From an uncultured archaeon (lineage in GTDB: Archaea; Thermoplasmatota; Penumbrarchaeia; JASLWR01), in assembly GCA_964342815.1 (NCBI GenBank), contig CAYFHS010000006.1, positions 85,850 to 149,849 on the forward strand: a DNA stretch of 64,000 bases, in the 5' to 3' direction. This document shows positions 27,880 to 28,171 of the stretch, piece after piece (the first letter of the stretch is position 1; every line of letters begins with the position of its first letter). The translations under genes were made by a program, and so were the position numbers. Below the pieces are notes generated by a model, which saw only the letters and a list, made by a program, of their open reading frames with translations, did no database searches and was not told the DNA's origin.

Positions 27880-28171
27880 TCCCCTGCACCCTCGGGAGTT
27901 TACTCCCTGCGGGTACACCCGTTTTAAACGGGGGATGAATGCTCCTGTAGCCACACTTGGCGAAGGAGCAGCAAAGCCCAAAGGGGTTTGCGGAGTGTAA
28001 CGGGCTCCTCCGGTCGTTTCCGAGGATGGAGGCGTATCACCGATGCGTCCGCAGGGGGGTCATCCCTGAGGGCGCAGCAACGTCGTAGATGTTGCGTAGC
28101 GAAGCGTGCGCCGGAACGATAGTGGGCACCTGTAAGCACACTTGCTGAAGGTGCAGGGGAAACTTTTCCCC
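27880..28171 (+). ncRNA. Unidentified GC-rich multi-hairpin non-coding element
   Basis: About 11 hairpins in 290 nt of a divergent intergenic gap; 11-bp terminal complementarity 27880-27890/28150-28160; duplicated 29-nt hairpin with compensatory changes; G-U pairs favour the + strand. Confidence 0.55.

What the first reader, a model, noticed from the sequence alone, without database searches (positions are those of the whole stretch)
27880..28171. Unidentified ~290-nt structured RNA-like element with an internally duplicated, covarying hairpin
Seen: a GC-rich island in an AT-rich divergent gap, with about 11 hairpins. 27941-27969 (GCTCCT-GTA-GCC-ACACTT-GGC-GA-AGGAGC) and 28126-28154 (GCACCT-GTA-AGC-ACACTT-GCT-GA-AGGTGC) are 23/29 identical, and all six differences form three compensatory base pairs, while the ACACUU loop and GUA/GA internal loop are invariant. 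Long-range alternatives exist (27880-27890 with 28150-28160; 27905-27912 with 28049-28056). Known: GUA/GAA is the bulged-G (loop E/sarcin-ricin) motif. Inference: selection on RNA (or ssDNA) structure with two equivalent protein- or ligand-binding sites and a possible conformational switch; it could be a new ncRNA, a tandem-aptamer leader, or an orphan IS200/IS605-type (HEARO/omega-like) RNA.
Basis: partly seen in the sequence, partly recalled or inferred. Interest (0 to 1): 0.72.

Follow-up and report, generated by a model that had tools for sequence, protein, structure and literature searches.

The report
Nested hairpin repeat cluster, not RNA gene
The GC-rich folded island is not a dedicated RNA gene: it is one 372-base composite copy of a modular, hairpin-forming repeat that is scattered through the genomes of a few related marine Thermoplasmatota archaea and is missing from the same site in a sister species.

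Summary
The two 29-nt hairpins are 23/29 identical, all six differences form three compensatory pairs, and the island folds far better than shuffles (z about -6).

The interpretation as one structured RNA does not hold.
- Window 27831-28202 is an indel. The orthologous gap in the same-genus genome aligns on both flanks but has about 15 nt in its place.
- Pieces of the island recur in other combinations at about 100 loci of the same genome.
- A covariance model of the ~65-nt unit finds at least 138 copies here, at least 138 and 147 in two relatives, 1 in a third, and none in 148 other genomes sampled from the phylum.

The island is a nest of at least five such units, in both orientations. The two flagged hairpins are the junction hairpins of two separately nested units. 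Their outer stems pair a short flanking word X with the unit's own complement X'.

Units are intergenic and show no orientation bias relative to genes. G.T outnumbers A.C 4:1 in the stems, so one strand folds.

No Y1 transposase or TnpB was found in this 89%-complete genome, so the mobilising enzyme is unknown.

The scan had already met this family on other pieces of this genome. It is REP/BIME-like and appears undescribed in print.

The parts
27831..28202 (+). Whole composite repeat element (372 nt). Begins ATCCGTAGG and ends GTGGGTGATTCAT.
   Evidence: Absent from the orthologous gap of same-genus G001, whose flanks align up to 27830 and from about 28205. The same termini bound other copies in G000 and G001 that are absent from the other genome.
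27831..27843 (+). 5' arm of the outermost hairpin (ATCC-GTA-GGAAAC).
   Evidence: Pairs with 28016-28027. Uninterrupted versions of this hairpin occur elsewhere, for example C9:87639 and C7:5522.
28016..28027 (+). 3' arm of the outermost hairpin (GTTTCC-GA-GGAT).
   Evidence: Read from the sequence. The motif is repeated 9-20 times in the genome.
27849..27915 (-). Repeat unit in reverse orientation.
   Evidence: Covariance-model hit, 45.7 bits, E 1e-9. Paralogues in L004, L006, L009 and L011.
27918..27940 (+). Small hairpin (CCCG-TTTTAAA-CGGG) followed by ATGAAT.
   Evidence: Recurs in C1, C19, C21 and C7 copies and in G001 composites.
27941..28009 (+). Unit 1: X (27941-27946), flagged hairpin 1 (27941-27969), hairpin B, mini-hairpin, second copy of X (28004-28009).
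   Evidence: Covariance-model hit, 65 bits. Paralogous empty sites in C21 and C19 read GCTCCT directly followed by CCGGTCG. So 27947-28009 (63 nt) is an insertion flanked by GCTCCT.
28044..28112 (+). Unit 3, nested in the 3' strand of the outer unit's hairpin B.
   Evidence: Covariance-model hit, 64.4 bits; structural parse.
28126..28189 (+). Unit 2: X (28126-28131), flagged hairpin 2 (28126-28154), hairpin B, mini-hairpin, second X (28184-28189).
   Evidence: Covariance-model hit, 64.6 bits. Paralogous empty sites C1:238733 and C3:29163 read GCATCT directly followed by GTGGGTGATTCAT.
28190..28202 (+). Conserved 3' terminal motif GTGGGTGATTCAT.
   Evidence: 15 exact copies in G000. The 18-mer including it occurs on 13 contigs of one Thermoplasmatota MAG among 185,579 species genomes.
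27755..27830 (.). Left flank of the gap, AT-rich and conserved with G001. Probably the promoter region of the divergent genes; not part of the element.
   Evidence: Alignment A1.
28205..28273 (.). Right flank of the gap, conserved with G001. Not part of the element.
   Evidence: Alignment A1.

Best explanation
The island is a 372-bp non-coding composite insertion. It is built from at least five copies, nested in one another and in both orientations, of a ~65-nt modular repeat unit restricted to one family of marine Thermoplasmatota.

Each unit reads: X, G(T/C)A, hairpin A, GA, X', CA, hairpin B, GKA, a 2-bp mini-hairpin with a GNA triloop, GK, then X again. X' can pair with the X before it (giving the flagged hairpin) or with the X after it (closing a three-way junction).

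Shown here: it is an indel relative to the sister species; it is a mosaic of dispersed modules; the stems covary; the fold is strand-specific; orientation is random with respect to genes.

Inferred (about 60%): the units are, or recently were, selfish mobile DNA. They fold as single-stranded DNA and are moved in trans by a structure-specific enzyme. New copies land next to a short pyrimidine-rich word X, often inside other units. On this reading, part of the X:X' 'covariation' is a by-product of how copies are made or targeted, either by guide-like pairing as in IS608 or by copying of the target. It would not then reflect selection on a functional RNA. The enzyme is unidentified.
For: 1. Empty orthologous site. 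Both flanks align with G001, but 27831-28204 is replaced by about 15 nt. The G003 and G002 gaps also lack it.
2. Reciprocal polymorphism. Six G001 loci carrying such elements are empty in G000 and one is shared.
3. Mosaic make-up. Different segments of the island match different loci. Transitive BLAST collects about 101 loci, about 9.9 kb.
4. Model R1 counts: at least 138 hits in G000, at least 138 in G001, at least 147 in G003, 1 in G002, 0 in 148 other genomes from 43 families of the phylum.
5. Four R1 hits lie inside the island, one of them on the - strand.
6. Paralogous empty sites exist for unit 1 and unit 2, each with X present once.
7. Covariation is seen in every helix: 96.7% of cells paired against 30-43% when the partner column is slid; 14 of 19 pairs change on both sides.
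8. G.T 69 against A.C 17 in 82 distinct units.
9. Of 117 nhmmer units, 93 lie outside predicted ORFs, counting 16 at contig edges that were not classified. Most of the 24 'genic' ones sit in short spurious ORFs. In tandem gaps 21 point with the genes and 26 against.
10. Identical 29-nt B core in frames with different X, hairpin A, X' and second X across genera.
11. The island also folds as ssDNA (z -5.0). The mini-hairpin consensus (GCGAAGC commonest) matches the very stable DNA mini-hairpin GCGNAGC (PMC13037366, PMC3201870).
Against: - No PF01797 (Y1) or PF07282 (TnpB) match in G000, which is only 89% complete.
- The Y1 genes of G001 and G003 sit in classic IS200 elements whose end hairpins are unrelated to these units.
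- No gene is flanked by units.
- No autonomous copy with the same termini was found.
- No movement was observed, only presence/absence between species whose flanks are about 80-85% identical.
- There are no transcription data, so an RNA-level role cannot be excluded. The G.T excess fits RNA as well as ssDNA.
- Seeds for the model were chosen by a parser that required pairing, and model-made alignments lean towards the structure. Percent paired is therefore inflated; the variety of pair types is not.
Confidence: 0.85

Rival explanations
1. A dedicated structured non-coding RNA, or a 5' leader of the beta-helix gene. It would carry two equivalent GUA/GA (bulged-G) protein-binding hairpins and a conformational switch.
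For: Strong fold (z -6.1). Covarying hairpins. G.U excess on the + strand. An AT-rich TATA-like block ends about 15-25 nt before the element start, so the element could be transcribed.
Against: Absent from the orthologous gap in the sister species, while both candidate promoter blocks are kept. No Rfam family matches. It is made of modules repeated more than 100 times in varying combinations. It contains a unit on the opposite strand. Unit orientation is unrelated to gene direction. The middle base of GUA is C in 19 of 82 units, which does not fit a strict bulged-G motif.
Confidence: 0.05
2. Host-recruited REP-like repeats. The units persist because the folded elements serve the chromosome or its mRNAs, for example as terminators or insulators, 3'-end stabilisers, or binding sites for a nucleoid or RNA-binding protein. 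This could hold in addition to, or instead of, mobility.
For: Density per kb is highest in convergent gaps, then tandem gaps, and lowest in divergent gaps: 18/64 kb, 47/233 kb and 12/128 kb. Bacterial REPs show the same preference (PMC3733652). The single-stranded motifs are highly conserved (GYA, GA, CAG, GKA, GNA). One orthologous element is retained in both G000 and G001.
Against: Orientation is random relative to transcription (21 against 26). Presence/absence turns over heavily between congeners. The sister genus G002 has only one copy, so no essential role is conserved. This particular copy lies between divergent promoters, where a terminator role makes little sense.
Confidence: 0.15
3. 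The modules are generated and shuffled by replication template switching or hairpin-primed synthesis and short-homology recombination, without a dedicated transposase. The X, X', X arrangement would be an inverted copy plus a direct copy of the local sequence.
For: X' always complements the flanking X, whatever X is. This includes the 3' end of a tRNA gene. Identical B cores sit in frames with different X, X' and second X. No transposase was found.
Against: Template switching does not readily explain the invariant GYA/GA, CAG, GKA and GNA motifs. Nor does it explain discrete composite termini inserted cleanly in unrelated AT-rich sites, or hundreds of copies in three genomes against one in a sister genus.
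Confidence: 0.12
4. An orphan end or guide RNA (HEARO/omega-like) of an IS200/IS605-type element, or a MITE derived from one.
For: At the level of the composite: no terminal inverted repeats, no clear target duplication, subterminal hairpins, an end in TCAT, and insertion after a T-run. Y1 transposases exist in two repeat-rich relatives and were not found in the repeat-poor one.
Against: No TnpA or TnpB in G000. No HEARO or other Rfam match. The IS200 copies of G001 and G003 have unrelated end hairpins. No copy with these termini carries a gene.
Confidence: 0.08

Closest known systems
REP / BIME / REPIN elements of bacteria (GTAG-tagged REP superfamily; RAYT-associated) - PMC3733652, PMC3116915, PMC3333891
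   Same: Short G+C-rich palindromic units in over 100 copies. Extragenic. Clustered in mosaics with alternating orientation. Stems covary within subfamilies. Preference for convergent and unidirectional gaps. A G-T-A-G-like word sits at the 5' side of a hairpin. Lineage-specific families.
   Different: This is an archaeal host. The G(T/C)A is an internal loop opposite GA inside a two-tier hairpin, not an unpaired terminal tag. The unit is larger (about 65 nt): a second hairpin plus a GNA-triloop mini-hairpin, and an X, X', X triple that allows two alternative folds. Units nest inside one another. No RAYT gene was found here and none is flanked by units.
IS200/IS605 family and its non-autonomous derivatives (IS608 guide/cleavage-site pairing) - PMC3201880, PMC5934647, PMC5027513
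   Same: No terminal inverted repeats. No clear target duplication at the composite's ends. Imperfect hairpins near the ends. A short internal segment (X') complementary to the word at both boundaries, which is the logic of IS608 guide sequences pairing with the left and right cleavage sites.
   Different: No TnpA or TnpB in this genome. X' is 5-7 nt and forms ordinary Watson-Crick stems, not 4-nt non-canonical guide contacts. The IS200 copies in relatives have unrelated ends. Cleavage was not shown.
Bulged-G (loop E / sarcin-ricin) RNA motif
   Different: The U is C in about a quarter of units. The flanking positions are ordinary pairs, not the A.A and extra A of the AGUA/GAA consensus. Nothing shows that the motif acts in RNA.
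E. coli tRNA-linked repeats / partial tRNA 3'-end duplications
   Same: Downstream of tRNA-Gly in this window, two modules each end with a copy of the tRNA's 3' end followed by a T-run.
   Different: Here the copies are the closing word of a repeat-unit-like module with an internal complement. This was not examined further.

Membership tests
REP/BIME/REPIN (GTAG-tagged REPs with RAYT) | Short palindromic unit, high copy number, extragenic | tested here: met
   At least 138 model hits in G000. 93 of 117 nhmmer units lie outside predicted ORFs, counting 16 unclassified at contig edges.
REP/BIME/REPIN (GTAG-tagged REPs with RAYT) | Unpaired GTAG tag at one end of the palindrome | tested here: not met
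   G(T/C)A is internal. It is enclosed by a 4-7 bp outer stem and faces GA. GTA in 45 and GCA in 19 of 82 units.
REP/BIME/REPIN (GTAG-tagged REPs with RAYT) | Cognate RAYT (Y1 transposase) gene, typically flanked by the repeats | tested here: not met
   PF01797 has no match in G000, which is 89% complete. No gene is flanked by units. The Y1 genes of G001 and G003 have unrelated IS200 ends.
REP/BIME/REPIN (GTAG-tagged REPs with RAYT) | Units clustered in mosaics or inverted doublets | tested here: met
   The island holds four model hits, three on + and one on -. Inverted pair at C2:257359-257498.
IS200/IS605-derived non-autonomous element / HEARO-omega RNA | Autonomous partner with the same ends encoding TnpA and/or TnpB | tested here: not met
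IS200/IS605-derived non-autonomous element / HEARO-omega RNA | No TIR, no target duplication, subterminal hairpins, insertion 3' of a fixed short word | tested here: inconclusive
   No TIR or clear duplication at three filled/empty comparisons. The left flank is often a T-run but varies among basic copies.
IS200/IS605-derived non-autonomous element / HEARO-omega RNA | Match to the curated RNA families | tested here: not met
   Rfam 15 scan at gathering and at E up to 10. Only a chance Pab160 hit, E 1.5.
Stand-alone structured ncRNA gene or cis-regulatory leader | Conserved at the syntenic locus in relatives | tested here: not met
   Absent from the orthologous gaps of G001, G003 and G002.
Stand-alone structured ncRNA gene or cis-regulatory leader | Fixed orientation relative to transcription | tested here: not met
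   21 with and 26 against gene direction in tandem gaps. Both orientations occur inside the island.
Stand-alone structured ncRNA gene or cis-regulatory leader | Transcribed as a discrete RNA | not testable with these tools
   No expression data are available.
Bulged-G / loop E motif | AGUA/GAA consensus with an invariant U forming a trans U.A pair | tested here: not met
   The middle base is C in 19 and G in 3 of 82 units. The neighbouring positions are standard pairs. The 3-D geometry is not testable.
MITE (TIR plus target-site duplication) | Terminal inverted repeats and a flanking direct duplication | tested here: not met
   The termini ATCCGYAGG and GTGGGTGATTCAT are not inverted repeats. 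Some other family members do carry GCGGAATCG inverted ends.

The most novel reading that the evidence does not exclude
The units are a new class of guide-bearing, ORF-less single-strand mobile modules in archaea. On this reading the internal word X' either pairs with the word at both boundaries and at the target (IS608-like programmable targeting), or is copied from the target at each insertion. That would make hairpins 'covary' automatically. It would also explain nesting, attachment to tRNA ends, and the exchange of identical B cores between different frames. The enzyme would be an unrecognised nuclease or recombinase.
Probability: 0.2. Interest if true: 0.8.

Novelty: new variant of a known kind. 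Interest (0 to 1): 0.5.

Why it matters
- It removes a false candidate for a new archaeal ncRNA. It also shows how perfect-looking compensatory changes can arise from nested repeat insertions rather than from selection on one RNA.
- REP/BIME-type repeats are well studied in bacteria and barely in archaea. This family is abundant (hundreds of units per genome), strongly structured, self-nesting, and restricted to a few marine Thermoplasmatota.
- The complement X' of the boundary word hints at base-pair-guided or target-copying insertion. If an enzyme is found, that would be a new route of DNA mobility in archaea.
- In practice, these repeats break assemblies (many lie at contig ends) and create spurious ORFs and spurious RNA candidates in these MAGs.

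Tried and rejected
- Rfam 15 at gathering and at permissive thresholds: no family. Only Pab160 at E 1.5 and a fly lncRNA at E 7.6, taken as chance.
- A loose genome-wide scan for stem-GTA-hairpin-GA-stem gave 124 hits, no more than control loops (37-162). The motif is informative only with the full unit context.
- Two hand-written parsers recovered only 16-20 true units. They were replaced by covariance model R1.
- Y1 transposase (PF01797) and TnpB (PF07282) searches in the own genome found nothing.
- Y1 genes in G001 and G003 were read with their flanks. They are ordinary IS200 ends, unrelated to the units.
- A search for genes bracketed by units found only a few large gaps holding ordinary ORFs.
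- A search for an autonomous copy between the composite's termini found that long start-end pairs hold HD, metallo-beta-lactamase, AAA, proteasome and kinase genes. These are chance pairs.
- ORFs overlapping the island (92 aa on -, 91 aa on +) have no Pfam match.
- The K-turn reading of the hairpin was rejected by reading the sequence: a K-turn needs a 3-nt bulge followed by tandem G.A/A.G, which the register here does not allow.
- Hammerhead-type three-way-junction ribozymes were rejected: there is no conserved core and no Rfam hit.
- Two literature searches found no description of this family. RepRanger 2025 (PMC12306157) reports generic REP-like stem-loops in archaea, but nothing from Thermoplasmatota.

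Full report
**1. The observation**

The sequence is as described. Window 27941-27969 and 28126-28154 are 23/29 identical. The six differences form three compensatory pairs. The ACACTT loop and the GTA/GA internal loop are the same in both, and both long-range complementarities are exact.

The region is a 55-64% G+C island in a 28-38% G+C divergent gap. It folds at -154 kcal/mol on the + strand (z -6.1), slightly better than the - strand (-136, z -6.0). It also folds as ssDNA (z -5.0).

Rfam 15 has no family there at gathering or permissive thresholds. The two ORFs overlapping it have no Pfam match.

**2. It is not a locus-specific gene**

Synteny of the flanking genes is kept in three relatives. 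These are a 1305-aa CARDB surface protein on the - strand and a 754-aa beta-helix protein on the + strand.

In the same-genus genome G001 the gap is 155 nt. Both flanks align at roughly 85-90% identity, up to window 27830 and again from about 28205. Positions 27831-28204 are replaced by about 15 unrelated bases. The G003 and G002 gaps show nothing similar either.

So the whole island is an indel sitting between two conserved AT-rich blocks, probably the two promoters.

**3. It is a mosaic of dispersed modules**

- BLAST of the island against its own genome gives partial matches to different segments at many loci: 83% over 27929-28203 on C7, 94% over 28016-28202 on C30, 87% over 27838-28027 on C1, and so on.
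- Transitive closure collects about 101 loci and 9.9 kb, many of them at contig ends.
- Reading the copies shows a common unit of about 65 nt. Its order is: X, G(T/C)A, hairpin A, GA, X', CA, hairpin B, GKA, a 2-bp stem with a GNA triloop, GK, then X again.

On an alignment of 23 units, 96.7% of cells pair in the first fold and 91.9% in the second. When the partner column is slid, this drops to 23-47%. 14 of 19 pairs change on both sides. One caveat applies: the seeds were picked by a parser that demanded pairing.

**4. Abundance and range**

Covariance model R1 gives these counts:

| Genome | Hits | Note |
|---|---|---|
| G000 (own) | at least 138 at E <= 0.01 | only 150 of about 1,170 candidates scored |
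| G001 | at least 138 at E <= 0.001 | |
| G003 | at least 147 at E <= 0.001 | |
| G002 | 1 | |
| 148 other genomes, 43 families of the phylum | 0 | |

The 18-nt terminal motif occurs on 13 contigs of 'Thermoplasmatota archaeon ETNP2_MAG_1' among 185,579 species genomes. It otherwise occurs only as 11 single hits. About 17 are expected by chance, by my own arithmetic.

**5. Anatomy of the island**

R1 hits lie at 27849-27915 (-), 27942-28008 (+), 28046-28112 (+) and 28127-28188 (+). All of them sit inside an interrupted outer unit. That unit's hairpin-A arms are 27831-27843 and 28016-27 (i.e. 28016-28027), and the composite ends with the conserved GTGGGTGATTCAT at 28190-28202.

Paralogous empty sites show the nesting:
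- C21 and C19 read GCTCCT directly followed by CCGGTCG. The window has 63 extra bases there (27947-28009) flanked by GCTCCT on both sides.
- C1 and C3 read GCATCT directly followed by GTGGGTGATTCAT. The window has 58 extra bases there (28132-28189).

The two flagged hairpins are therefore the junction hairpins of two separate, related insertions. Their outer-stem 'compensatory' change reflects two different flanking words (GCTCCT, GCACCT), each matched by its unit's X'.

**6. Behaviour**

- Between G000 and G001 the elements come and go in both directions. Besides this locus, six G001 loci with such elements are empty in G000, and one is shared.
- Composite copies in G001 have the same termini (ATCCGYAGG ... 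GTGGGTTGTTCAT) and no inverted termini or clear target duplication. A basic 113-nt version with these termini occurs at least six times in G000.
- Of 117 nhmmer-detected units, most are intergenic. In tandem gaps 21 point with the genes and 26 against. Density is highest in convergent gaps, as for bacterial REPs (PMC3733652).
- In 82 distinct units the stems hold 1174 Watson-Crick pairs, 69 G.T, 17 A.C and 67 other mismatches. One strand therefore folds.
- The internal loop is GTA/GA in 45 units and GCA/GA in 19.
- The mini-hairpin is most often GCGAAGC, GTGAAAC or ATGAAAT. These are of the GCGNAGC type known as an unusually stable DNA mini-hairpin (PMC13037366; GNA triloops, PMC3201870).

**7. 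Mosaicism**

Unit 1 of the window shares an identical 29-nt B core (hairpin B plus mini-hairpin) with units of G003, a different genus. Those units have a different X, hairpin A, X' and second X. Conversely, G001 copies have unit 1's hairpin A and frame but another B core.

Modules are therefore exchanged, or frames are rebuilt, faster than cores mutate. I cannot explain this step.

**8. What moves them**

- No Y1 transposase or TnpB is detectable in G000, which is 89% complete.
- G001 and G003 have IS200-type Y1 genes and G002 has none. However, their end hairpins are unrelated to the units.
- No gene is bracketed by units, and no gene-bearing copy with the composite's termini exists in G000.
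- The X'/X complementarity recalls IS608, where internal guide words pair with both cleavage sites and with the target (PMC3201880, PMC5934647). This is an analogy, not a demonstrated mechanism. Template switching is a live alternative.

**9. Verdict**

The structure is real. The feature is one nested copy of a lineage-restricted, REP/BIME-like, probably mobile hairpin repeat. It is not a dedicated ncRNA, an aptamer leader, or an IS605 RNA.

Earlier agents of this scan reached the same family on other pieces of this genome. I reached the repeat reading before that look-up, then tested it independently, and I took two paper leads from their notes.

I found no published description.

Noticed in passing
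window 37820-38053 (- strand): Intron-containing tRNA-Gly(TCC) at 37956-38053. It is followed by two module-like segments, each ending in a copy of the tRNA's 3' end (CACCTGCA or ACCTGCA) plus a T-run. R1 hits 37881-37964 (33 bits). The repeat frame seems to use the tRNA end as its word X.
   Followed up: partly
window 4313-4413 (- strand unit at 4334-4401): Another unit of the family, here bracketed by inverted GCGGAATCG / CGATTCCGC ends. Some family members therefore look MITE-like with terminal inverted repeats.
   Followed up: no
window 51289-51408 (-): A further R1 hit (37 bits) stretched by an internal insertion of about 55 nt.
   Followed up: no
window 63942-64000: The window and contig C6 end inside a repeat of the same network. 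Many other contigs also start or end in these repeats, so the family fragments the assembly.
   Followed up: no
L044:1465-1956 (G003) and L045:1405-1896 (G001): IS200-like elements encoding a 163-aa Y1 transposase that looks closely similar by eye in two genera. Both have matching left and right end hairpins (GCCAG...CTGG). None was found in G000 or G002.
   Followed up: partly
window 27942-28008 vs L010:1544-1611 and L014:1498-1565 (G003): Identical 29-nt core (hairpin B plus mini-hairpin) in units whose X, hairpin A, X' and second X all differ. This points to cassette-like exchange between frames across genera.
   Followed up: partly
G000 C1:152836, C22:61002, C29:3632, C42:29229, C14:13847, C3:28998: A basic element of about 113 nt with the same two termini as the composite and a terminal CCCACAGA/TCTGTGGG hairpin. 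It is probably the backbone into which units nest.
   Followed up: no
window 23837-33628: The island sits among genes for large secreted surface proteins: CARDB 1305 aa, beta-helix/NosD 754 aa, PKD 983 aa.
   Followed up: partly
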